The position numbers and the translations under genes were made by a program. Under the pieces are notes generated by a model. The model did no database searches. It worked only from the letters and a program-made list of their open reading frames with translations, and had not been told where the DNA came from. DNA of 57,538 nucleotides, the filler included, from Sanchytrium tribonematis (lineage: Eukaryota): the NCBI GenBank assembly GCA_018985235.1. It is 6 parts of 6 records of this genome, joined end to end, with 100 filler letters (N's around TTAATTAATTAA, not from the genome) between each part and the next. Parts side by side here need not be neighbours in the genome. Positions count along the whole stretch, not along the records: positions 9,751 to 19,348 come from JADGIG010000325.1; 5 more parts are not named here. The stretch is one strand, 5' to 3'. Position 1 is the stretch's first letter, and each line of letters begins with the position of its first letter. Positions 2,700 to 48,150 of this stretch are shown piece by piece.

Positions 2700-3992
2700 A
2701 ATAAATTCATTGCGCATTTTAATTTGGTCATTTTTAATTTTTATCTGTTTATGTACTTTTTCAACCTAGTACGCAATTCCTGCACAACTAATGTGAATCC
2801 CTAAATATTTAATATATTCTGAACATTCTAATTTTTGATTTTCTACCACAAACGTGTATTCAGAAGATGCGCAAATTTGGTATTTATGGGGATTGGCCTT
2901 GAAATTATGCTCTTTGAGTTTACTAGTGATTTTATTTAAAATAAGTTGCAAATAATTTAGATCATTTGCGCAAAGAAATATATCATCTGCTTACAAACAG
3001 ATGGCTATTTTGGCCTTGGTGATAACATTGAAATCACAGATATTTATTAAAAACTGTTTGCTCTTAAATACCGCAGCTATTCGCCTGCTCCTCCTTTGAT
3101 TGGTACCATCTTGTTCTTTATTATAATCGCCTTGATATAGGCTTGTTCAAAAAGATGTTTTGATGTTATGATTTCATTAGATGGTAAATATTTTAATGAT
3201 ACATTTGTCAATATGCCACCAGCAGATTTTCTCGTGTTAAATCTTCTTACTTCTTTCCTGATCTTTTCACAACTAAATAGTAATTTGGAATCATTATATG
3301 CTTTGTCTATTTGATCTTCTGTGATATATTGTTTATTCCAGTTGTGGTCTGGTGCATCAAAATGACTTTTTTGGTATTCAATCATTTCAGATTCGTTGCA
3401 AAATAAGGGATTTGTTTGAGAACTAGAATTTTTTATTTTACAAAGTTTGTGATAAGCATTAGTAGAATCTCGATTTATTTCTTCCAGTGCTTCCAATTGA
3501 TTTTGGTACAGTTGTTTTTCCATTTCTGCATTATATTTTTTGCGAGATTGCTTTATTTGTTTTAATAAAAGAATGCGTCTTTTCCTAGATTTTACACGAG
3601 AATACATCTGTTGCTTTCTTTTAATGTATTTATTCATAGTATCCAGGTTGCTAGTTAATATCCTAGATTCTAGAAAATTAAGAATAATTCCAAGTGTCTG
3701 TCTTCCTGCTGTCAGAACACAATTAGTCATAAAACTGTCAATTATTATTCAAATTTATTGATTTTAGTACGTTATTGTTGTACTTTTTTAAAAAGTCTGT
3801 AAAAGTGATAGATATTGCTTTCTGAATTTTTGAATTTTCCAGTTCATTTTTTCTTGTGAAAGTATCATTTTACTGGTTTCCAATTTAATTATTGTTGGCC
3901 AATGATCAGAGGTGTATTTATCTGGTCTCTGTATTGTTGTCAAAGATTTTACAGAATGTTGAAGACTAGAATGTGACCAAAAGTGGTCTAAA
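2700..3992 (-). mobile_element. Degenerate non-LTR retrotransposon (LINE): APE endonuclease C-terminus plus reverse transcriptase
   Basis: LDHFW...TSDHWP endonuclease end; KSAG; (Y>*)ADDIF; FKANPHK; YIKYLGIHI RT motifs. Internally deleted, with stops. Confidence 0.85.
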
Positions 3993-3999
3993 ATTTATT

Positions 4000-4925
4000 A
4001 ATTGGGAAGCATTGTATTACGGAAAATTCGATATTTGCAAAATTACAAAGAATATCCAGAAAAGCTAAAAGCTAAAATTATAATATCCTGAGCAAATTTG
4101 TTTAAGCGGTCATAAACTTACACAAGCTATTTAGAGAGAGCTTTATTGATGTTTATTAGAATTTCACAAAATTGCCAAATCCTAGTTAGTGTCACACAAT
4201 TTGAACAATAAGCTAAGCAGCTCGAATTAACGAAAAATTTTAGATACACAGGTGATGAATTTAAATGTAGTCCAACTTGGAGTACAAATTTTTTTTCAAG
4301 AAATAATTTAAAAATAAGAAGTGCAGCTGGAATAGCTGGAAGTGTTTCATTAATTAGGGATGACGCATTAGCTTAAATAAAAGATCAGTGTCCAGAATAT
4401 GAAAGTTTGCAATTGTGCCAGTTGTGGAATCTGGATGAAAGAGCGTTATTCTTTAAAATGAATGGTAATAAAACCATTGCATTTTGTGGAGATGAAGTAC
4501 ACGGATCATCAGAATCTAAGAATAGAATAACAATAGTGTCTATTATAAATGCTGCAGGTAAAAAATTGTCGTTAATATTTATTGGAAAATCCATAATTCC
4601 AAATGATATGAACGCGAACAAGAATCATTGGAAATGGCTTGATCCCGATGTTGCTACTAAAGTATCACAATTACGTAATAACGGTAAATTTCAATTACAA
4701 GAATTTACCCAGTTTAATATATTTTGTAGCAATTCTAACAAAGGTTGGATAAATTCAATTGAGCAAGTTTGCTATTTTATGGATAGTCACGCAGATGTCC
4801 TAAACGGATCAATTTTGTTGATGGACAATTATGGTGCCCATTTTATGTCAGATGAAGTTTTATCCCGCTTTTCAAAAGTGAAACATTTTTTTTTGCACCA
4901 AACACTACTTCACATTTTCCTTTGA
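4000..4925 (+). mobile_element. Degenerate pogo/Tigger-like (CENP-B HTH + DDE_1) transposase
   Basis: FKCSPTWSTNFFSRNNL (HTH), LWNLDERALF, RITIVSIINAAG, KGW, LLMDNYGAH, and frameshifted PNTTS. Cut off at about 4925 by the next element. Confidence 0.85.
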
Positions 4926-7599: not shown

Positions 7600-8365
7600 T
7601 TTTATTGTGCCATTCCTGATGCTTTCAAGTTTGAATAGATAATTGATCTTTCTTTCAACTGCTGCAAATCCAACATTTCCAAATCCTTTTCTGTTTTGCT
7701 TTTCCTTAATGATTTAATGCACTCATACTCATTTTCAATATCCTCACATTCTCTTTTCATTTTATTGACTGATCACTCTAGAATCATCGGATGATTCTTT
7801 TCATTTTATTGGTAAAATAAGACTGATCACTCTAGAATCATCGGATGATTCTTTTTATTTTATTGATGAAATAAGACTGATCACTCTAGAAACATAATCA
7901 TCGGATGATAACTTCCTTTTTGCAGTTTTATCAGCGGCTTTCACACTAAATGGGTTGTTTTTCATTATTATTCATTTCCACACATTCCGGGTTTTCTTTT
8001 AATGTTCCAACAAATGCCTGTTGAAATTTTCAAGAATTTCTTTGAACATTTGCACTTCTTCTAATGATGCCGGTGTAACAATGGTATGATGTGAACCATC
8101 CATACAATTATTTCCAATTTTTGAAATATTTTCATTGAATTTGTTTGCCCATTTAATGAAATCCTTTTCATTTCCCTCAATAGAATTGATAAATCTATTG
8201 AATCCTTTCTGTGTCAACAAGTGATTTGTAGAATTGGGACACAGTACCTTGATTTTTAGTTGCTTTTAGTTTACCATCTTCTCCAATTTTATATTTTGCT
8301 GTTTGATGTGAATGTGCATACACTACACTACAAATCAAGATTCCTTTTGTTGTCCAAAGAGCCAT
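7600..8365 (-). pseudogene. Degenerate ORF convergent with the Harbinger transposase, possibly the element's second (Myb/SANT-like) ORF
   Basis: ORF pieces 8195-8386 and 7999-8220. Position matches two-ORF Harbinger architecture, but the domain was not directly recognised. Confidence 0.35.
7767..7908. repeat. Tandem repeat, 54-bp unit, about 2.6 copies
   Basis: GACTGATCACTCTAGAA... starts at 7767, 7821 and 7875. Confidence 0.9.
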
Positions 8366-8684: not shown

Positions 8685-9650
8685 TGGCGCCTCCAAAGGT
8701 CGAAGATTCCCAAGAAGTTCAATCAGCAAGATTAAAACAAAGGCAAGAGATGGAATTACAGGAAGCTATGTCACATAAAGCCACTGAAGACGAGCTAAAT
8801 CAGTTGCGCGGTGTTCATCTGCTTCAACAACAATAAAATTCTAGGATTTTATCGGGGCTTCAAAAATTATCAACAATTGGGGTTTCTCAACAATCTTCGT
8901 TTGTAAATGTAGGAAATACTTCCAGAAGACCTATTAAAACAAATTTGGTTCCGAAGATACTCCCAGGAGGATTGGAAGTCATGGTATCTACCCCAGTAGC
9001 AGCTGACGATCCAATGGAATTAGATAATGATGTCGGGGTTTTTAATTATAGCAAAATTCCGTTTCAATTGGTCACAAAAGTGATGTTTACCATTGATGCA
9101 AACCCTTATACCTTTTTGTCACAATACGAAAGACTAATGCAACATGTGGGTGCTAATTATTCAGATTATTGGTACTTTTTTGCATTTCACTTTGATGATT
9201 ACACCCTAGAGCATGTTTCTTAGATTTGCGCAAGCAACCGCTATTGACCTCGAAACTGAACATTTAGAGATGTTGGTTTATTATATGTTGCAGGTTATGT
9301 AAATTTAGTGAGGCCTAATTGACACCGGAGCAGGAGGCAATTTTGTTGGTGAAAGTTTTTTTAAATCGCTAAGGTGCTCCAATGAAGTATTATATGAAAT
9401 TTTTATTAATGTTGTTCTTCCGAATGGTAAATGCTTGGTATTAATAGGTGCAGTACACCTTGATATTAATTTGAGTGGTTTTAAATGTCGCGTTTTGTTA
9501 CATATTATTCCGAAATTAAATAAAGGTGTGATTCTTGGAAATTTATTTTTACATCAATATAAGGTTGATATTTTGTATTCGCAACAATTAATCAAGTTGA
9601 CTGATAAGTTTATTCCTTTTAAATCAGTGTCAGGCAAGAATCTGTATAAT
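8684..9650 (+). mobile_element. Degenerate gag + aspartic protease of an LTR retrotransposon, truncated by contig end
   Basis: MAPPKVEDSQ... gag-like frame with an in-frame TAA; LIDTGAGGNFV and VILGNLFL retropepsin motifs. Confidence 0.8.
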
Positions 9651-9750
9651 NNNNNNNNNNNNNNNNNNNNNNNNNNNNNNNNNNNNNNNNNNNNTTAATT
9701 AATTAANNNNNNNNNNNNNNNNNNNNNNNNNNNNNNNNNNNNNNNNNNNN
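9651..9750. other. Artificial contig spacer (44N-TTAATTAATTAA-44N)
   Basis: Six-frame stop linker; the identical structure occurs five times. Confidence 0.98.
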
Positions 9751-11019
9751 TTCAAAAGAATCTCCAGAATCTTGTACTTTTGTAAGTACCTCGCCCACAG
9801 CATTGATTTTAATTCCACCCATTGAATAGTGAATGACGGGAGTAATTTTAGCAATGTAGTGAGGTTTCGTAGCGTCGAATTTCACAGGGAAGACAGTTTT
9901 GTTGAATTTATCATCTTTGCCGTAGTTTGACAGAGTCTGAATGACTTCTTCTCGAGAGGCCTCGTCTCCAATGAATTTAACAAGATCATCTACAGATTCA
10001 CATTTCTCAAATAATCCTTTTTTCTGATAAAATTCAAAGGTGGATTTGTCAAATAATTCCACACTTTCTTCATTCATAATCATAAAACAGAGATTGTTTT
10101 TACAATTGGAGAAAATATCATTCGTGACCAAGTCGCGAGATTTTAATTCATCTGTAAATCGACAGCCTTTTTCATTTACAAGAATTCCACCACTTCCTCT
10201 TAATGCTTCAGGGGCTAAAAATTTTGTGTTTGGCCCATTCGCAAATCCAGTGGGATGAATTTGAACAAATTCCATATCTTGCAGAATCGCGCCATGTTTT
10301 GATGCGATTTTAGCGCCTTGACCTACAGCAAAATTTCCATTTGTGGTTGGTAATTTCAGAAATTGTGGTGTGTACTCTTTTAAATAGCCATCATAGTCAT
10401 GACTATAACCCCCTGTAGTCAAAATTACTGCATCTGAAAGTATCTTCTCACTTAGAATTTCGTTTTCTTGCTTGACTTCGATAATAACTCCATTTATCTC
10501 ATTACCATTCTTGATCAAGTCTTTTAACTCAGAATTAAATTTAAAATCAATCGAACCATATTCGGGTTTGGTTTTCCTTTTTTGCTCGGTTTCCAAGTAA
10601 TGCTTAAGTGCAGAGACAATATTCCATCCCACACTACTAGGCTTATCAGATGGTGGTTGCCGGTGCGTTCTCCCAACAGAATGCCCCCCGCATTGGGATA
10701 TTTTGCTAAGCGTCAAATTGAAAGACTCCAAAAACTCAAGAGCACTCGTACTTTCAGTGACTAAGGTTTGGACCAATACCGGATCATTCAAATTGTGACC
10801 ACTCTTGACAGTGTCATCATAAAACAAAGCATTGCTGTCGCTAATTCCTTGGTCCAGTTGGTAATGGCTTAAACTATTCATTCCGCTGGATGCTTTACAG
10901 CTATTTCCAAATAGACCTGCTTGCTTTTCGATCATTACGACTTCGCTTCCATGTCGGTATGCTTCTATAGCAGCTGATAATCCTGCTAATCCTCCGCCAA
11001 CAACGATTACTTTTGTCAT
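9751..11019 (-). CDS. Soluble FAD-dependent fumarate reductase (Osm1/Frd1 family), 3' truncated
   Basis: VVGGGLAGLSAA, GGHSVGRTH, QIHPTG, PEALRGSGG, IHYSMGGI. Confidence 0.93.
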
Positions 11020-11216
11020 GAACAAACGGAGATCTAATAATTTTATAAAACTTAGTTCGGAGTTAGCCGCATATCTAAAATATTATATTGTCATTTTGGC
11101 ACCATATGATTGGAACCGCACTGAATTCAAATAATTATTTTAATTACAACATGGTGAACTTGTATTTCGGACGGGTTAATTTCTTAAAACGAAATAATTT
11201 TCCAAACATTTAAGAA

Positions 11217-12251
11217 ATGATTTCTACTAAAGTGTATTATAATGTGGGTTTACTAGCCGCTTTAGTGCTTGTCTTTATCTACGTACCCATTGCCAAAAAT
11301 ATTTGCATATTTATGAGTGGTATTGCGTTGTGGAATATATTTGATGGGCTATCAAAAAGAATTCCACGCCCTAGAGACCGGATAGTTAAAACTCCATTCA
11401 GCGCATCCACAAATAATACGATTAATTCAAATTGGTCAAATATGACCCCACTAACACCCGTATCGCCGTTAGCAGCAAAGAAACCAACTTACAATATGAA
11501 AGTATCACAAAATATATTATCAACACTCAATAAGCAATATGAAAAAGCAAAACACACAACAGATAATAATATCCAACAATATCCTAAAGAAATTAACGAA
11601 CAACAAGTTATTTTACTCAAGACTTGGATTGTAAGTAAAATTTTAAGGCCATTTATGCGAGATTTGAAAACAGTGGATTCAGTTTATTCCTTGGAAAAAA
11701 GAATAGATCACCATAACAAATCTATTCCATTTGGTCCAATTGAAGATGCTTTCGTTGAATGTGAAGAAGAATTCGAGTTGCACTCTGATAACAAATGGGT
11801 CATAAGAAGATTGACATACGAAATCTTTTTGCAAATTCCAAGTACAGACCAGACCGTTAAGGCTAGAAAATATTTGCTGCAAAGAGTACAAGAATTAGCC
11901 CAACATTCTCAACTTATTAATTACTGCTCTGATTCAAGAAGCATCGTACAATTTCAACCGACTTTTCCAACTGATGGTCAAATAATTTTACATTTTGTAG
12001 ACGTGTTTCTAAAAATCAACGCCCCATATCACAGTCAATCTATCTTACAATTTATTTGCTGTATGAATCGGCTTCCGGATGAGTATGGTTTTACTTATAG
12101 AAGATCCTTGTATAAATTGAGTGATAAAGAAAATTTGTTTCGTGCAATCGTTGCATTTATGCTCTATATTCAAGAAGAGTGTGCTGGGTACTTTGGTCTA
12201 TTGAATATGTCGACGCCAATGGTTGGCACTCCAAATTTAATAAAAAAGTAA
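11217..12251 (+). CDS. TMEM209-like nuclear-envelope membrane protein
   Basis: N-terminal TM segments; FPTDGQIILHF and NLFRAIVAFMLYI...GYFGLLNM resemble the TMEM209 C-terminal motifs. Confidence 0.6.
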   Translation: MISTKVYYNVGLLAALVLVFIYVPIAKNICIFMSGIALWNIFDGLSKRIPRPRDRIVKTPFSASTNNTINSNWSNMTPLTPVSPLAAKKPTYNMKVSQNILSTLNKQYEKAKHTTDNNIQQYPKEINEQQVILLKTWIVSKILRPFMRDLKTVDSVYSLEKRIDHHNKSIPFGPIEDAFVECEEEFELHSDNKWVIRRLTYEIFLQIPSTDQTVKARKYLLQRVQELAQHSQLINYCSDSRSIVQFQPTFPTDGQIILHFVDVFLKINAPYHSQSILQFICCMNRLPDEYGFTYRRSLYKLSDKENLFRAIVAFMLYIQEECAGYFGLLNMSTPMVGTPNLIKK

Positions 12252-12256
12252 ATTTA

Positions 12257-12784
12257 TTACGCCACCATCATAGGCTCGCTTACCTTTTCTTTAATTTCTT
12301 TGCCCTTTAATTTTTCCACCAACGCTAAAGCAAATTCTAAGGCAGTTCCTGGTCCACGACTAGTGATCATTTTATCAACTACAACACGTTCTTCCGAATA
12401 TCTAAAAGATTTAAGCTGGTCTTTGACACATGGATGTGATGTAATTGTAGAGTTGGTATGTATTTGCCATTTTTCCAGGGCAATAGGAGAGGCGCAAATG
12501 ACAGCAATCAACTTTGATTCGTGTCTTTTCAGGGCTTTTCCGACTCTTTCGTCTGATTGAAACTTTTTAGCACCATCCATTCCACCAGGTAAAACTAAGC
12601 AGTCAAAAACTTTGTCCGGAATGACTGTTGTGTCGGCTATTAAATTGGTTCCCCTAGCACATTTTACGTGCAGTTCATCCATACTACAGACAACCACTAC
12701 AATGCCTGCTCTTCTAAGAACGTCAATTACGGTGACACTTTCAATTTCTTCAGAACCATTTGCAATTAAAACTAGGGCTTCCAT
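12257..12784 (-). CDS. DJ-1/PfpI family glyoxalase/deglycase
   Basis: GSEEIE, LVLPGG, AVICASP, ITSRGPGTALEFAL. First ATG at 12784. Confidence 0.95.
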   Translation of the reverse strand: MEALVLIANGSEEIESVTVIDVLRRAGIVVVVCSMDELHVKCARGTNLIADTTVIPDKVFDCLVLPGGMDGAKKFQSDERVGKALKRHESKLIAVICASPIALEKWQIHTNSTITSHPCVKDQLKSFRYSEERVVVDKMITSRGPGTALEFALALVEKLKGKEIKEKVSEPMMVA

Positions 12785-12907
12785 TTTTAAAACAAGGGAT
12801 AAATTTTGGGCCAAAAATTAGTTATTATAATCAACCGTTTTGAAGCGCGCCAAAAAGAGTTGAATGGCTTAAACGAGCAAATAAACACTGTCTTGGCAGG
12901 TTTAGAC

Positions 12908-13729
12908 TTACCAACAGAAGATGAAATGAGGAAAATCCAGTCTGAGTATGAAGAACAAGCAATAGCACAAGCAGGAGTGACAGATGAAAATGTTGAGAGA
13001 TAGAGTTTTGAGAGCTGAAAAGATAAATGAAGATCCGGAAATGTTGAAATATAGCAAATGCTCGTGGTAAAAAGAATTGACTAAGACTAGGCTCTTAAAG
13101 AACTCCTCGGAATAGGCAGTTGTTCGTCTTGAAATCATAATAACTTCAATGTCGTTTTGAAAGTGATTTCTGATCCATTATAAGCGCTTGCTTGAAACAA
13201 GCCAACAATCTATTTCGAAACGGAAATGCATAATTTAAATATCAATTGAAAAATTAATGTACTTTGAAGGTGAAATTGTTAGACGTACGTTAATGGAATA
13301 GTGTTTGTGATTTCTGACTAGACACATTACTGTAATATTTGGGTTTTCACTATAAGTTGTGATGTTATGATGGAAATGATTGGAATAAAATAATTGGAAA
13401 TTTGGGGTCTTTGGCCATTGCAATACCATTGATTTCAAATGTGTAATAAAAAGCTCAACAACATCTCTAATAGACGCATTAATATACCTAACCAAACAAT
13501 ACTAAGTCGAATTTTACACCCACGTGCCTCTTGTGCGTTGTTAAATAATTGACAAATGGATATAAATCTGTTGTAAGTTTTCGACAATCTCACGTCGCAT
13601 TCTGTATATTTTCTTATATGCTCTTGGGACTAGATACGTAATCTCACTAATTTGATTTGGAAATTTGTTCCCTTGAATTTTGAACAAATTTTGAACAAAT
13701 AGCTGTATATTAACACCAAGAGTCAACAC
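12908..13729 (-). pseudogene. Decayed ORF of unknown function (one frame, about 270 codons, five TAA/TAG stops)
   Basis: Track ORFs 13541-13729, 13235-13495 and 12908-13138 are all in the same frame, separated only by TAR stops. Confidence 0.5.
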
Positions 13730-14097
13730 ATCGTATAAAATTTTATTGAGCTTTGGTAGTCATCAAAATCGCTGTTAAAATTATGTCGGAATGAGCGAAT
13801 CGACAGACAAAATGCAGTGGAATTGAAAAAGATATGTCGATTTATTAGCATGTGTTGGAGCATATGCTACCCAAATTGCACGATAATGCATCATGTGTTG
13901 TTTCATACCTTTAATTTTATGTTTTGGTAAACGATGGTATGCGAGCTGACCGTCTGACTTGAGTGTGAAACAAGATTGGGGCTAAATATTTATTTATTTT
14001 ATATTGCCTATAAATTTATTGATTAATTCACGTCATTCATTTATTTGTTGAGGCTCAATATGTCTTAATTTATAAGAAAGGGAGTAATTTCATTTAC

Positions 14098-14574
14098 ATG
14101 TTGCTTTCTTGTGATCCTGGTAGTAAAAATTGTGTAATTGTGATATTACAAAATTGCCAAACCATGGAATTACAAAATGGTAGATTTATTGACGTTAATA
14201 CTGGGTTTTACAGAGTTGTGTATCGAACAACTATCGATTTAGTTGCTCTAGGTGGAGGTGGAACGACGGTACAGTTATCAACAACCTTGGCCAGTTCCAG
14301 GAGTAGGCAATGTAGCGTTCGTGGCATTTTTGTCGAAGCTGTAAGAAATTGTGTTTTTGAATCAGTAATGATTACAATTGCAAATACTCTTAATTTGCCT
14401 TGTGTATCGTTAAATCCTACTATTTGGAGACACCATTTTCAGATTAATGGTCGAAAAACCCCGCGATCTTATAGGCAAATGAACGTCTTTGCCTTAGTGC
14501 AAAATCCAGATGAGTTGCAAAACATTCATGAGATGGATGTCACATTAGTTGCAATTGCATCTCAAATTGATTAA
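14098..14574 (+). CDS. RuvC-like Holliday-junction resolvase (RuvC/poxvirus A22/Ydc2 fold)
   Basis: N-terminal LSCDPGSKN, central IFVE, LPCVSLNPTIWRHHFQINGRK and C-terminal HEMDVTLVA match the order and spacing of RuvC-family motifs; 158 aa. Confidence 0.65.
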   Translation: MLLSCDPGSKNCVIVILQNCQTMELQNGRFIDVNTGFYRVVYRTTIDLVALGGGGTTVQLSTTLASSRSRQCSVRGIFVEAVRNCVFESVMITIANTLNLPCVSLNPTIWRHHFQINGRKTPRSYRQMNVFALVQNPDELQNIHEMDVTLVAIASQID

Positions 14575-14603
14575 AATAGCAGTAAAAGAATGATATTTAT
14601 TTA

Positions 14604-16118
14604 TTATTCATCATTTTTTCGAAAATAATCACGCGCACTACGATAGGTCTTCAAACTGGGATATCTTGATTTAAATTGCTCAAATGTTGGAAATTTGTTG
14701 AAATGCTGGCCCACTATTACTTTTTCCTTGAAAGCATGCCTATCAGGAGAATTAACTTTGTACATTTCCACTACATGGTCTTTAATTGGAATTGGACATG
14801 TCTGTGGATCGCCTTCTTTCCATAATTTGAAGAAATACTTCATAACCTTTGAAATGCTTGGAAATGACTTGAAAGTAACTGATTTAATATCAATACATGT
14901 TTGTATAGATGCTGCTTGAGAAATTGGAAGTGGTAATGGCCTTTGTTTACTTGTAAAATGACCCAATTCATGTTTTAATAAATCTACTACTTGCTTCGCC
15001 ATTTCTTTGTAATTGATAAATAAAATGCCTTGTTTATCTAGTTGGGATGTCAGTCTTAAAGGGTTCATAACGTCTGATATATCTTTGTGACGAGATATCT
15101 CTAATTGCAATATATATTTAGTGAATGTGGCTGGTGATTCCCATCTGCCCCATTTCATAGCTGATTCAATGTCCATATTCATATTTGATTGAAAAAGAAT
15201 CCAGCGGGCACCACCACGTCTGTATGAATGCCCTCCAATTGATCTTGGAATCAGAGAATTGTCTTGTTGCAACATTGAAATGACATCTTTAAATTTGGTA
15301 AATGACAGAGATTTAGTAGCATCTAATGTCAATTTACCAGTTGGAGAGATGTGGAAGTCGCAGAAGAGAAAAGAGTGGCGTGTCAATGGTATTTCTAGAG
15401 ACTTCAAAAAATCCATATAATTTCTAAAGAAAGTAACTGGTAGAATTGGATGACCATTAGGATGGTCATAAAAGTTTCTTGGACTAAATGCAGCATTTAA
15501 TTGTGCTCCATTGCCATTAATTTTCTTTCCCATTGTTTTGTGCCATGTCAGTTTAATTGACAAATATAATGATTTTTCACTGGGTTTGTGCAGTTTAACA
15601 TTATCATGGGATAAGTGGGACGCTTCATCATAGCTGTGACAGCCATAAAATAGAAAAACTAACATACACTGGAAATATTTGCAAATAAACGGATGTTTGC
15701 TTTATAATGAATTTATCATTTCCGACAATTCATTAATACACAACGGATAGGCACGTATGTCAGACTCTTCATTAAAATCTCTTATATGTGTTGTACGTAT
15801 TCCATGTACAGTGGATCTCAATTTCTGGTCTTGTGCAGGATTGGGAGTTGGATGATAAATTCCAAATTCTGTCTCAAAAAAATATACTAAAGCACTTTTG
15901 ATAGATACTACAGTTCCTGATTTAATAAACTGTTGTTTCCAACAGAGAAAATCCTCAATTTGCTGGACAGTTTGATTATAATTGGTGACATTTAAAATCA
16001 GCTTATTTTGCCAAAGTCATTTTTTAAACTGGCTAATATATGATTTCCAACATCTAATCGTCTCTGGCGCTCTCCGGCGCTCTCTGAATTCGGATGCAGT
16101 CAAATGTGGATTTTGCAT
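14604..16118 (-). mobile_element. Crypton-like tyrosine recombinase pseudogene (about 504 codons)
   Basis: GHSYRRGGARW, WGRWES and KY catalytic region; GCR1_C-like tail (LWKEGDP..PIKD). Frame extends to ATG 16118 through TGA (16017-19) and TAA (15702-04), with a SAM-like N-terminus (APETIRCWKSY...NPA). The first catalytic Arg position reads Ser (HSYDE). Confidence 0.85.
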
Positions 16119-16299
16119 CGTAAACTTGCTTTTTGAAATTTGGGGAAGGGGAAATCAATTTGTAAAATTAATCAAATTTATTTTGTCCAATGAGACTCTG
16201 AGACAATTGATGCTGTGAGAATTGTCAATTTTAATCTCCGAGTACAAATTCATTGCAAATGATTGGGTGAAATTTCGGACATCCAATCAAATTGGCCAA

Positions 16300-16320
16300 C
16301 CGAGGTCAGTCTGACCTCGG
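16300..16320. repeat. Perfect palindrome CCGAGGTCAG-T-CTGACCTCGG
   Basis: 10-bp arms with a 1-nt spacer, GC-rich in an AT-rich context, about 180 bp upstream of the recombinase. Confidence 0.9.
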
Positions 16321-16440
16321 ACTGTAAGATGATGTCGTGTCTAATTGATTTAATCAGCTCCTGCTGAATTTGGATTTGAGATTCGGTGTCCCATACATGT
16401 TCTATGCAAGAATATAGAGTCCTTTATACGTCGCACAATC

Positions 16441-19255
16441 ATGAAACAACATCACAATGATTTCAATCTAACTGTTTCGTCTACTACCCCTCCTTTTTTG
16501 CCTTTGGAGGAATCACCTCAGAATTTGAATGACAATTTAATGCCAATCCCCTGTATACAACTCTCTAATTTCAAATTAATGACGAAGTTAAAGCCACCTC
16601 TACATTCAAAATACTTTGATTCACTCTGCAAAATATTCAAAAATAACTCACAATAACACTAAAATTGTGTCTGAGCACAGTAATGATGCTCAATCTTCTT
16701 ACTTCCACAGACCTGATCGTCTTAGAACAGACCTATTTTTCTCCTTAAAAGGAATCTCACTACAACAAGTAATGGCCGAACTACAATTAATGTCCAAATC
16801 CCGAAAAGCATGACATCTTTTTTCAGTGGTGATAATGGTTCAAGATATGAACACCTATTTTTCACAGGCATGCCCATTTCTAACTTGGACGGAAAGGAGT
16901 TGTTGACAGCAGCCTCCTCTGCACTACCTTGTGTGAGCAAGGAAACATCAAATTCAGAGACATCCCAAAGATTTATTACTTACATGGTAATCGAATTGTT
17001 GAGGTTGTCATTAAATCCCGCAGCAAAACCAAATTTATTACTGCACTTGACACTTTCTCTAAAGATGAGGACTTGGGATCGGCCTTTTCTAATGTTCAGC
17101 AAATTCCTCTTAAAGAGTGGCTAAGTTTCTTGGCAACTAATAATGATTTGAAATACAGAGAATTCGAGCAAGTTAAATCGAAGGTGCTTGATCTTGCCTA
17201 TTTGATCCAAAAAATAGCAATTTTGACCATCTTTATTCAAATCCATTAGCGACTTTTATTTGGACTATGCTGCCTCCTTCATTCCACAATTCAATGAAAA
17301 TGCCTTCTTATTACAGATCAAATTCCTCATTGATTCAAATAAAATTAAAAAAGCATCAATTCTAGCCAGTAATGAGAGTCAAGAAACCACTCAAATGCTT
17401 TTGATTTCCCAGTTTGTACCCCCAATTTTGAATGAAACAACAGTACGACGAACAATTTAACAAACCCATCACAAACAGTAGACGACATTAGTATCAATTC
17501 TGAATCTAAATTGGATGAAAATGGTGACTTGCCGGACACAAATAGCGTCAAATTTACTACTAATGATATTTGTGTCATCCGAGTATTGCCAAATTCAACA
17601 ACATTACAAGATCTAGTTAATAAACACAGTGCCACTGAATGCATTTACAATCTAAGCTCTCCTACTGACTTAAATTTGACTCTTGCTGATCGATCTAGCG
17701 TGGTTTTAATTGTTGCCAACGAACTGGTCTCAAATATTTCCTGTCACGTTCTTGGTGAGTCATATTTACTCAAAATCCCCAAATTCACGAATTTAATCAA
17801 TCTAATCCCAGAACAATACTGGTCAGAAATTGGAATTGCTTATGGTCTTTTGGTCAATGATCAGGACTATACCAGTCAAATCTCAGGCTTCTCTCAGTGC
17901 AGTCAAATCAATTCATTTAAATTATATTCATTAAACAACAATTCATCTTATCTATCAAATTTAATTATTAATATTTCTATCAAAATCTGTAATGGAAAGT
18001 CAAAAATCTACACAACCCCATGCCACACGTGGCTTGATTTTGTACAAACCAATAACTTGTTTAAATTCTCTTCTGCAAATATTTACTGTGACAGCCAACT
18101 CAAAATGAATGAGTTCCTACTCACCAATGGCTGCCTCATCCTCATCACTGGCAAGTTGCTTGGTGGCTCAAGTCCTAAAAGACAGCGCACGCACTATCCT
18201 CAAATGGCTAAAATTCCGCCAATCTCCATTTTGAACGACTGTTTTTCTAAAAACCTAATTTACCAAGAAATCAATGACACAATTTACACCTTCTACAGGG
18301 ACTACAATGGCATTCAAACATCATTTGTAGACCACATTATTGTACCAACTCTACCGCAATTAAAAATCACCGACACTGGTTCAATTCCCGTAACCACCAG
18401 TTATCACTCTCTCAATTTTTGTGATGTACAGTGCGGAGAGATCCATTTGCTTCAAAAGAATTCTCGTATCAAATCTTACAAGCTAAAAGATGAAGACACC
18501 CAGTTTTATTTTCAACAATATCAAAATGCCAATTGTAGCAAAATTAAATCCATTATTTATTCTTGTCTAAATAACTTCCCTTATGTCCGCCAACAACATG
18601 AAACAAATGATTCCAGCATTCGTGATAAATTGACCACTGCAATTGATAACATCCAACACATTATTATTGACTCCGGATGGAACATCGTCAGAATATTTTA
18701 GAGGTTGAACTGCAAGTCGATGAATCAGTTATGGCTAGCAGATTCCTAGAAGAGCAAGAATTTGGGAACTTGTCAACTATCTTGAATCAAGAGGAAGAAG
18801 AGAATATTAGTTATAGTGGTCTATCTGCCAATTACCAGTATCATAGTTATTTTATGATGTATGATGCGCAGAAAGCCATTCATCCCTCCCTTATTGGTTT
18901 AATGTTTAAATTTGTTTTTAAGAAGTGCAATTTGGATGTGACATTAATAAGATTCCCAGTAATTATTCCCATTATTTCAACAAATATTGAGCAACCGTCT
19001 AGTGAAAGCGACGGTACATCTAGTGAAACCACTAGATCCCCCATCCACATGTATGAACTCGTTGCAATTGGCGAACAACGGTGCCATGCAGAATTTGTTA
19101 AGTTATTTTACAGATTTAGAATCACTTTAAATAGTGTTTATCTTGGACAATTGACTTTACAAAAGGAGAATGAGTTTTTAGAAGCCTTCTGTCAGCACAC
19201 AGAAGATCGAGAAATGTTTACAAAGTTCATGTTTGAGGTGTTTTCACATGAATAA
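16441..19255 (+). pseudogene. Long frameshifted coding region of unknown function, probable element cargo
   Basis: Chain of overlapping + strand ORFs (16441-17460, 17511-18701, 18677-19255) ending TAA within AATAAA. No recognised domain except a ubiquitin-like ...KLLGG. Confidence 0.45.
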
Positions 19256-19348
19256 AACAACCAGTATGCCAGCCCATTTCCAAAGATTCGAGCAGTACAT
19301 AATCACTTGGAAAGAAGAATTTACAATAGTGAATATGGTAGAATGAAT

Positions 19349-19448
19349 NNNNNNNNNNNNNNNNNNNNNNNNNNNNNNNNNNNNNNNNNNNNTTAATTAA
19401 TTAANNNNNNNNNNNNNNNNNNNNNNNNNNNNNNNNNNNNNNNNNNNN
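19349..19448. other. Artificial contig spacer
   Basis: 44N-TTAATTAATTAA-44N. Confidence 0.98.
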
Positions 19449-19813: not shown

Positions 19814-20282
<469 letters not shown>

Positions 20283-28875: not shown

Positions 28876-28903
28876 ATCATTACTTATAAAAAAAGTTATT
28901 TTA

Positions 28904-28974
28904 TTAAGCACCAAATCCATACAATGTTCTTCCTTGTCTCTTTAATGCATAAACAACATCTAATGAAGTAACAG
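28904..28974 (-). CDS. Second histone H4 copy, 3' end only (cut by contig end)
   Basis: Identical to 19814-19884 except for two synonymous changes. Confidence 0.9.
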
Positions 28975-29074
28975 NNNNNNNNNNNNNNNNNNNNNNNNNN
29001 NNNNNNNNNNNNNNNNNNTTAATTAATTAANNNNNNNNNNNNNNNNNNNNNNNNNNNNNNNNNNNNNNNNNNNN
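28975..29074. other. Artificial contig spacer
   Basis: 44N-TTAATTAATTAA-44N. Confidence 0.98.
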
Positions 29075-38525: not shown

Positions 38526-38625
38526 NNNNNNNNNNNNNNNNNNNNNNNNNNNNNNNNNNNNNNNNNNNNTTAATTAATTAANNNNNNNNNNNNNNNNNNN
38601 NNNNNNNNNNNNNNNNNNNNNNNNN
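38526..38625. other. Artificial contig spacer
   Basis: 44N-TTAATTAATTAA-44N. Confidence 0.98.
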
Positions 38626-48050: not shown

Positions 48051-48150
48051 NNNNNNNNNNNNNNNNNNNNNNNNNNNNNNNNNNNNNNNNNNNNTTAATT
48101 AATTAANNNNNNNNNNNNNNNNNNNNNNNNNNNNNNNNNNNNNNNNNNNN
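48051..48150. other. Artificial contig spacer
   Basis: 44N-TTAATTAATTAA-44N. Confidence 0.98.

What the first reader, a model, noticed from the sequence alone, without database searches (positions are those of the whole stretch)
12815..19348. Candidate new mobile element: Crypton-like tyrosine recombinase paired with a RuvC-like resolvase plus cargo ORFs
Seen: just upstream of the DJ-1 start, intact host genes give way to about 6.5 kb of decayed orphan frames. At the centre, a 158-aa RuvC-motif ORF (14098-14574, +) ends 29 bp from the stop of a roughly 504-codon YR (14604-16118, -). Established: Cryptons normally encode only a YR; YR recombination passes through a Holliday junction; standalone RuvC/A22 resolvases occur in bacteria, phages, large DNA viruses and as mitochondrial Ydc2/Cce1. 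Inference: a large YR-mobilised element or endogenised virus-like element carrying its own resolvase. This copy looks dead (two stops; first catalytic Arg appears as Ser).
Basis: partly seen in the sequence, partly recalled or inferred. Interest (0 to 1): 0.72.

Follow-up and report, generated by a model that had tools for sequence, protein, structure and literature searches.

The report
Crypton transposon relic carrying RuvC resolvase
This is a broken copy of a repeated DNA unit in which a dead tyrosine-recombinase gene faces an unbroken gene predicted to encode a Holliday-junction-cutting enzyme; it is likely a Crypton-type jumping gene that carried its own junction cutter, a pairing I did not find in the papers I searched.

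Summary
Both genes are there as described. The 504-codon YR (two stops, Arg read as Ser) folds like Cre; its named relatives are eukaryotic (Sanchytrium, Aphanomyces) and lack GCR1_C, which fits CryptonS. The 158-aa ORF matches a Holliday-junction-resolvase family (E 1e-4) and Pox_A22/RuvC clusters, but its fold was not confirmed. Two of them join there from other flanks, both carrying TATGG, the published CryptonS terminus. One contig links RuvC to YR across a 1.6-kb deletion; another holds a rearranged YR relic. The right end is open: 16395 (2.5 kb, two genes) or beyond 19348 (with an orphan pseudogene). Best reading: a dead CryptonS-like transposon with its own resolvase, which would finish junctions at mismatched targets (inferred). 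No neighbourhood of a relative could be fetched, so conservation across species is untested here. This scan noted similar Crypton-plus-resolvase pairs (A22, RusA, GEN1) on other DNA before; those notes are unchecked.

The parts
13914..13931 (.). Left terminus of the repeated unit (3' end on the YR strand). Two other contigs start matching at 13928 and 13931 from different flanks; both read TGTAACCATA at the junction (CCATA = TATGG on the YR strand), the window reads TGTTTTGGTA
   Evidence: table 7; exact crossover base not resolved because the three flanks share a degenerate TATT..TGT
13932..14097 (+). Subterminal non-coding stretch upstream of the RuvC-like gene, present in variant versions
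   Evidence: a 116-nt record with 7 differences at 14012-14127; a 668-nt record matching up to 13974 and 14014-14080 with 39 nt skipped
14098..14574 (+). Unbroken 158-aa RuvC/A22-like Holliday junction resolvase gene (predicted); candidate catalytic D6, E80, H144/D147
   Evidence: phrog_1770, E 1e-4, residues 1-128; Atlas 0.93, 183 of 256 features, Pox_A22 on 43% of members; fold not confirmed
14604..16118 (-). Tyrosine recombinase pseudogene, 504 codons, CryptonS-like architecture (SAM-like N-terminus, catalytic domain, conserved C-terminal domain, no GCR1_C hit); stops at codons 34 and 139; Ser at the first catalytic Arg; K194, H297, R300, W323, Y335 kept
16300..16320 (.). Perfect 10-1-10 palindrome upstream of the YR start, the longest in the window; candidate binding site, untested
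16391..16395 (-). Candidate right terminus of a compact 2.5-kb element: the only TATGG on the YR strand between 15644 and 19348; weak, and the contig graph argues against it
   Evidence: CCATA occurs 46 times in the window, 0.0008 per base
16441..19348 (+). Run of overlapping orphan frames (largest 421 and 194 aa), by eye one long frameshifted pseudogene; cut by the contig end; whether it belongs to the element is unresolved
   Evidence: no family or Atlas match; one unbroken record covers 15946-19348 and runs 410 nt further
12860..13924 (-). Decayed frame (355 codons, 12 stops) outside the left terminus; unidentified
12257..12784 (-). Host DJ-1/PfpI gene, flank
   Evidence: PF01965, E 7.9e-39
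19349..19448 (.). Artificial spacer between unrelated contigs

Best explanation
This is a dead copy of a repeated DNA unit, likely a CryptonS-type tyrosine-recombinase transposon, that carries tail-to-tail with its broken recombinase gene an unbroken gene predicted to encode a RuvC/A22-type Holliday junction resolvase. Shown: the two frames, the YR fold, the damage, a left end shared with two other flanks, TATGG at that end in two copies, a deleted version with parts of both genes. Inferred mechanism (about 0.4 on its own): the element would excise or copy out as a circle joined at TATGG; the YR would make the first strand exchange with a TATGG-like target; where the 5-nt core does not match (this copy has TACCA where the others have TATGG) or the junction meets replication, the YR could not finish the second exchange, and the element's resolvase would cut the four-way junction so that host repair completes the insertion. 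The right end is either 16395 (2.5 kb, two genes; about 0.4) or beyond 19348 (at least 5.8 kb with the orphan pseudogene; about 0.6).
For: YR: 46 other proteins at E<=0.001, best 29% over residues 7-501; organism named for 9 of 30 looked up: 3 Sanchytrium, 5 Aphanomyces, 1 Tulasnella; model pLDDT 71, best PDB match Cre, E 9.7e-8; no GCR1_C among 28 proteins scanned, conserved C-terminal block, both as described for CryptonS. Resolvase: phrog_1770 E 1e-4, Atlas rows Pox_A22, RuvC, Ydc2 at 0.90-0.93. Repeat: two of 12 records laid on 13750-14400 have 255 or more unrelated letters before 13928 and 13931, both ending in TGTAACCATA; TATGG is the listed terminus of most CryptonS. Linkage: one record joins 14293 to 15938, with about 73 other letters between (111 loose letters minus the 38-nt side). 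A further record holds three YR pieces with gaps.
Against: All copy evidence comes from short contigs of one run that may be the source of the window, with 8 of 27 and 8 of 13 pieces shown. The deleted version ends where the long right-hand record starts, so it may be an allele or tandem duplicate of this locus and not an independent insertion; depth sums do not add (167+56 against 147 and 157). This copy lacks TATGG at its left end. No RuvC fold was obtained: single-sequence model pLDDT 31.5, no Pfam, NCBIfam or PDB RuvC hit, a five-sequence bacterial/phage RuvC profile scored no better than 24 of 200 shuffles. No relative's neighbourhood was obtained. No annotated CryptonS sequence was compared. 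The window YR is unplaced in the tree (support 0.03 for its sister).
Confidence: 0.6

Rival explanations
1. Passenger or chance nesting: an ordinary CryptonS-like relic sits beside, or once picked up, a RuvC-like gene that plays no part in its movement; the other versions are alleles or a local duplication.
For: The foreign-flank record appears to merge with the second allele of this locus and no exit is visible for 3.8 kb of identical sequence, which fits a tandem or segmental duplicate. The resolvase gene is unbroken while the YR is dead. No second species was checked.
Against: The 668-nt record is only about 88% alike over 14014-14080, has its own flank and starts at the same terminus on the resolvase side, so the resolvase's upstream region lies inside the repeated end. 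The gene sits between the YR stop and the TATGG end, 170 nt from the end.
Confidence: 0.2
2. Fragment of an endogenised DNA virus (giant virus or polinton-like) in which YR is the integrase and A22 the concatemer resolvase.
For: All five Atlas clusters shown for the small ORF are mostly viral. Ectocarpus endogenous giant viruses encode a YR and an A22-like resolvase (passages). The orphan pseudogene on the right could be viral.
Against: All 9 named YR relatives are from eukaryote genomes; IMG/VR scans found no relative (low sensitivity); no capsid, ATPase or polymerase match in any frame tested; CryptonS-type terminus; GC like the host.
Confidence: 0.1
3. The 158-aa ORF is not a RuvC-family nuclease.
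For: Searches gave no RuvC support; shuffled proteins reach an Atlas score of 0.9 in 4-10 of 100 cases; the stretch between E80 and the proline motif is short.
Against: Two different methods agree (PHROG E 1e-4; Atlas 0.93 with 183 shared features, recognition 3228), and the D..E..H/D motif order fits.
Confidence: 0.06
4. It is the host's single mitochondrial resolvase (Ydc2/Cce1).
For: Ydc2 shares the fold; one Atlas cluster carries Ydc2-catalyt on 41% of members. The whole genome could not be searched.
Against: No Pfam Ydc2 hit at E<=1; the first motif starts at residue 2, leaving no room for a targeting peptide or the SAP domain (Ydc2 layout recalled); it lies inside a repeated end, and one version is deleted through it.
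Confidence: 0.04

Closest known systems
CryptonS DNA transposons of oomycetes and a diatom (Kojima and Jurka 2011, PMC3212892; parts 1-2 of 7 of the text, passages and supplementary file 1 read)
   Same: YR without GCR1_C and with a conserved C-terminal region; oomycete relatives; TATGG at a terminus; optional second gene; autonomous lengths 2.5-5.9 kb in their table, which covers both candidate lengths; internally deleted derivatives
   Different: Second gene is RuvC/A22-like, not a C48 peptidase; host is not evidently a stramenopile (nearest named full-length relative is from Sanchytrium); this copy has TACCA, not TATGG, at its left end; a direct repeat at both ends is not shown
CryptonF (fungi, oomycetes), including MarCry-1_FO and CryptonF-2_PS (same paper)
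   Same: YR DNA transposon with short terminal repeats and sometimes a second gene
   Different: No GCR1_C hit in 28 proteins; different termini
Poxvirus A22 / phage RuvC-like / Ydc2-Cce1 resolvases
   Same: Size, motif order, profile and language-model matches
   Different: No sequence relative found among 27 word-sharing candidates; sits in a transposon end, not in a viral replication block or mitochondrial role
Endogenous phaeoviruses of Ectocarpus (PMC13236599, passages read)
   Same: YR integration through a circle and an A22-like resolvase in one element
   Different: Giant viruses with full gene sets; A22 discussed for concatemer resolution
Integron attC x attI recombination (PMC3458562, abstract and outline read)
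   Same: A YR makes one strand exchange and another process resolves the junction
   Different: Resolved by replication; a section heading states that RuvABC and RecG do not process these junctions

Membership tests
Tyrosine recombinase superfamily | Cre/lambda-integrase fold with SAM-like N-terminal domain | tested here: met
   (Cre, E 9.7e-8, probability 1.00); relatives hit PF13495/PF00589; the window protein itself has no Pfam YR hit
Tyrosine recombinase superfamily | Catalytic R-K-H-R-(H/W)-Y intact in an open frame | tested here: not met
   Ser162 for Arg, two stops; K194, H297, R300, W323, Y335 kept: a dead copy
Crypton (general) | YR DNA element without reverse transcriptase, DDE transposase or long terminal repeats | tested here: met
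   no such domain in the frames scanned; no long direct or inverted repeat in 12800-19348; sequence beyond 19348 unseen
Crypton (general) | Several copies with a common end and different flanks | tested here: met
   left end only: three flanks, one run, possibly the source; one of the two foreign flanks may be a tandem or circle junction
CryptonS | No GCR1_C; conserved C-terminal region | tested here: met
   (0 of 28 proteins hit GCR1_C at E<=0.05)
CryptonS | 5-6-bp direct repeat, mostly TATGG, at both termini | tested here: inconclusive
   TATGG at the left junction of two other copies, TACCA in this one; right end not fixed
CryptonS | YR clusters with annotated CryptonS sequences | not testable with these tools
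   no Repbase sequence on hand; tree of 24 proteins places it outside the Aphanomyces clade with weak support
CryptonF | C-terminal GCR1_C domain | tested here: not met
RuvC/A22/Ydc2 resolvases | Profile or feature similarity | tested here: met
   not seen with Pfam, NCBIfam, PDB sequences or a five-sequence profile
RuvC/A22/Ydc2 resolvases | RNase-H-like fold | tested here: inconclusive
   single-sequence model pLDDT 31.5, not searched
RuvC/A22/Ydc2 resolvases | Acidic catalytic residues in three motifs | tested here: inconclusive
   D6 and D147 align with invariant E. coli D8 and D142 in a six-sequence alignment whose middle is misregistered; E80 and H144 assigned by eye from recalled motifs
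RuvC/A22/Ydc2 resolvases | Cleaves four-way junctions as a dimer | not testable with these tools
   needs an assay
Endogenous giant virus / polinton-like virus | Capsid, packaging ATPase or DNA polymerase genes | tested here: not met
   none in the frames scanned; orphan pseudogene unidentified; contig ends at 19348
Host Ydc2/Cce1 | Single-copy gene with N-terminal targeting/SAP region (recalled) | tested here: not met

The most novel reading that the evidence does not exclude
A lineage of CryptonS-related transposons in early-branching fungi carries a virus-type RuvC/A22 resolvase as a working part of transposition, and Cryptons have recruited unrelated junction cutters (RuvC, RusA, GEN1) several times, which would mean that eukaryotic YR transposons often move by one recombinase strand exchange plus nuclease resolution, freeing them from core homology.
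Probability: 0.35. Interest if true: 0.8.

Novelty: new variant of a known kind. Interest (0 to 1): 0.58.

Why it matters
A 2026 review says that Crypton transposition has not been shown experimentally (PMC13565253, passage). Tyrosine recombinases normally resolve their own Holliday junction, so a dedicated resolvase inside the element predicts a different route: one exchange by the recombinase, then a cut by a nuclease. That is testable with a two-gene system of about 2.5 kb and would bear on how YR elements insert at imperfect targets. It would also be a case of a virus- or phage-type resolvase living in a nuclear transposon. This copy itself is dead, so the value lies in finding an intact relative.

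Tried and rejected
Whole genome not held. Word-indexed protein searches found only the window's own proteins for YR and RuvC and nothing for the left relic. PDB sequence searches gave no RuvC or YR hit. Phage tblastn with the small ORF: no match. Single-sequence fold of the small ORF failed. RuvC profile from E. coli and four phages: not significant. Neighbourhood searches all blank: IMG/VR, metagenomes (31 pattern matches, none confirmed; 87 matches, none a family member among the 89 loci checked), prokaryote genomes. These blanks are weak: the motif fits only 6 of 50 stored relatives. One search had a gap one base too long and is uninformative; one search repeated that pattern on the window to no purpose. 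No RNA holder listed. GCR1_C, first guessed by eye, not supported. Pogo/DDE_1 reading of 12860-13924 rejected. Inverted similarity between the left end and the 16300 palindrome is not above chance (score 22; other contigs reach 28). C48 peptidase in the right-hand frames: no Pfam hit. First tree run timed out. phrog_1770 in one viral record: no match. Paper searches without a report of a Crypton carrying a resolvase: (listings; passages read). Repbase and subscription papers were not searchable, and bioRxiv supplements were not seen, so a prior description cannot be excluded.
Full report
Setting. The window is six pieces of about 9.5 kb joined by five 100-nt spacers; the finding lies on the piece 9751-19348. 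The genome is a compact, intron-poor eukaryote by its gene content (my inference), 30-39% GC in most bins with no shift over the finding. No whole genome was held.

Observation. The 158-aa ORF and the 504-codon YR frame are at the stated places, tail to tail, 29 bp apart. The YR has stops at codons 34 and 139, and Ser162 in a column with Arg in 15 of 19 aligned relatives; K194, H297, R300, W323 and Y335 are kept.

The recombinase. A full phmmer scan of 1.84 billion representatives gave 47 hits at E<=0.001, one of them the window's own protein. I looked up 30 of the other 46: an organism was named for 9 (3 Sanchytrium tribonematis, 5 Aphanomyces, 1 Tulasnella), the rest are unnamed assembly proteins. 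Relatives hit SAM-like and phage-integrase Pfam models; none of 28 proteins hit GCR1_C. A model built on 20 sequences (pLDDT 71) matches Cre best (E 9.7e-8). Kojima and Jurka describe CryptonS as lacking GCR1_C, with a conserved C-terminal region, mostly TATGG termini and sometimes a C48 peptidase gene. The architecture fits, but no annotated CryptonS protein could be compared, and a FastTree tree of 24 proteins leaves the window's YR weakly placed outside the Aphanomyces clade.

The small ORF. It matches phrog_1770, annotated Holliday junction resolvase, at E 1e-4 over residues 1-128. The Atlas rows shown are Pox_A22 (0.93, 183 of 256 features, family on 43% of members), two unnamed viral clusters, RuvC (0.91) and Pox_A22/Ydc2 (0.90). 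D6 and D147 fall on invariant aspartates of E. coli RuvC and four phage proteins; E80 and H144 are placed by recalled motifs. Against: no Pfam, NCBIfam or PDB RuvC hit, a failed single-sequence model and a five-sequence profile that 24 of 200 shuffles equal. I put RuvC/A22 ancestry at about 0.9; activity is untested.

Copies and ends. One public run holds the stretch (0.99 of words) and may be its source, so it is not independent. Of 21 records laid on the contig, 8 of 27 pieces were shown; of 12 laid on 13750-14400, 8 of 13 pieces and 4 loose ends. Two records start matching at 13928 and 13931 after 255 or more unrelated letters; both read TGTAACCATA at the join, which is TATGG on the YR strand, while the window reads TGTTTTGGTA. 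One is a 668-nt record that skips 39 nt and is about 88% alike over 14014-14080 before it drops below the threshold. A third record joins 14293 (RuvC codon 66) to 15938 (YR codon 61), with about 73 other letters between by subtraction. A fourth holds three YR pieces with gaps (joints 15124-15692 and 15766-15910). So the unit is repeated, its left end lies at about 13914-13931 on the resolvase side, and 12815-13913 is outside it. That left stretch is a decayed minus-strand frame with no match.

The right end is open. For a compact element: a perfect 10-1-10 palindrome at 16300-16320 and the only YR-strand TATGG between 15644 and 19348 at 16391-16395 give 2.47 kb, near the shortest autonomous CryptonS listed (2,541 bp); but such a pentamer is expected about 0.3 times in that intergenic stretch. 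For a larger one: a single record runs unbroken from 15946 to 410 nt past 19348; bin depths are fitted exactly by a second allele (13911-13962, depth 51), the foreign-flank record (13928-13962, depth 35) and their merger (13933-13971, depth 90) (four unknowns on four bins, so a reconstruction, not a test), and no exit of that extra path is visible; depth is 114 left of the terminus and 138-167 right of it. This would fit a tandem copy or circle junction of a unit of at least 5.8 kb that includes the orphan pseudogene at 16441-19348 (no match). It also means that the deleted version may be allelic or tandem, which weakens it as proof of independent co-insertion. Depth sums are noisy (167+56 against 147 and 157).

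Other species. No neighbourhood of a relative could be fetched: scans of IMG/VR, metagenome and prokaryote collections were blank and of low sensitivity. Conservation of the pair is therefore untested here. Several relatives lie on contigs of 2.2-2.6 kb, which would suit a small collapsed repeat, but this is only a hint.

Mechanism. Established: a YR exchanges two strand pairs through a Holliday junction; integrons show that a YR can stop after one exchange and leave resolution to another process (abstract); Cryptons are proposed to move through circles, and one TATGG is taken as target, the other as terminus. Inferred: the resolvase would cut junctions that the YR cannot finish, for example at a mismatched core such as the one at this copy's left end. 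A role in resolving replicated circles or multimers is the main alternative within the same reading. Neither was tested.

Prior knowledge. Second genes reported for Cryptons in the passages read are C48 peptidase, DDE transposase, HTH protein and Fanzor. Four searches pairing Crypton or YR transposons with RuvC, A22, resolvase or Holliday listed 2, 4, 4 and 10 papers; the passages read show no Crypton with a resolvase, and the YR-plus-A22 case found is a giant virus. Repbase could not be searched. Earlier notes of this scan report the same pair in Rozella allomycis and Crypton pairs with RusA and GEN1 elsewhere; I did not check them and count them as leads, though they raised my prior that the nuclease is a working partner.

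Verdict. A real, dead, repeated YR element of CryptonS type with a probable RuvC/A22 resolvase gene: a new variant of a known kind. Interest 0.58, held down by the single-run copy evidence, the unconfirmed fold, the open right end and the lack of a cross-species check.

Noticed in passing
window 9651-9750, 19349-19448, 28975-29074, 38526-38625, 48051-48150: Five identical 100-nt N/TTAATTAATTAA spacers: the window is a chain of unrelated contigs of about 9.5 kb, so adjacency across them means nothing.
   Followed up: yes
window 16520, 19097-19098: The run's contig differs from the window at three bases at full depth: assembly errors or another strain.
   Followed up: no
window 9965-10087: A four-difference bubble (depths 66 and 102) in the flavoprotein-like gene at 9703-11019, which is cut by the contig start; 9751-9964 has no listed cover.
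   Followed up: no
window 13311-13352: A 42-nt match to another record with loose letters on both sides: a short repeat or chance.
   Followed up: no
window 16322-16328: CTGTAAG right after the palindrome is the terminal repeat listed for the diatom element CryptonS-1_PTri; may be chance.
   Followed up: partly
window 19814-20125 and 28891-28974: A histone H4-like gene and an 84-nt 95% copy of its 3' end at the end of the same contig.
   Followed up: no
window 8837-9650: Gag-like and aspartyl-protease-like frames (weak Pfam hits, E 0.008), an LTR-retrotransposon relic on the neighbouring contig.
   Followed up: no
window 4458-4925 and 3077-3730: By eye a pogo/Tc5-type transposase fragment and a LINE-like fragment; no Pfam support.
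   Followed up: partly
window 7767-7921: Three 54-nt tandem units, each with a 9-1-9 palindrome in the first two.
   Followed up: no
P0042: A 697-aa protein matches the YR's C-terminal block in eight stretches, so that block may be a repeatable DNA-binding module.
   Followed up: no
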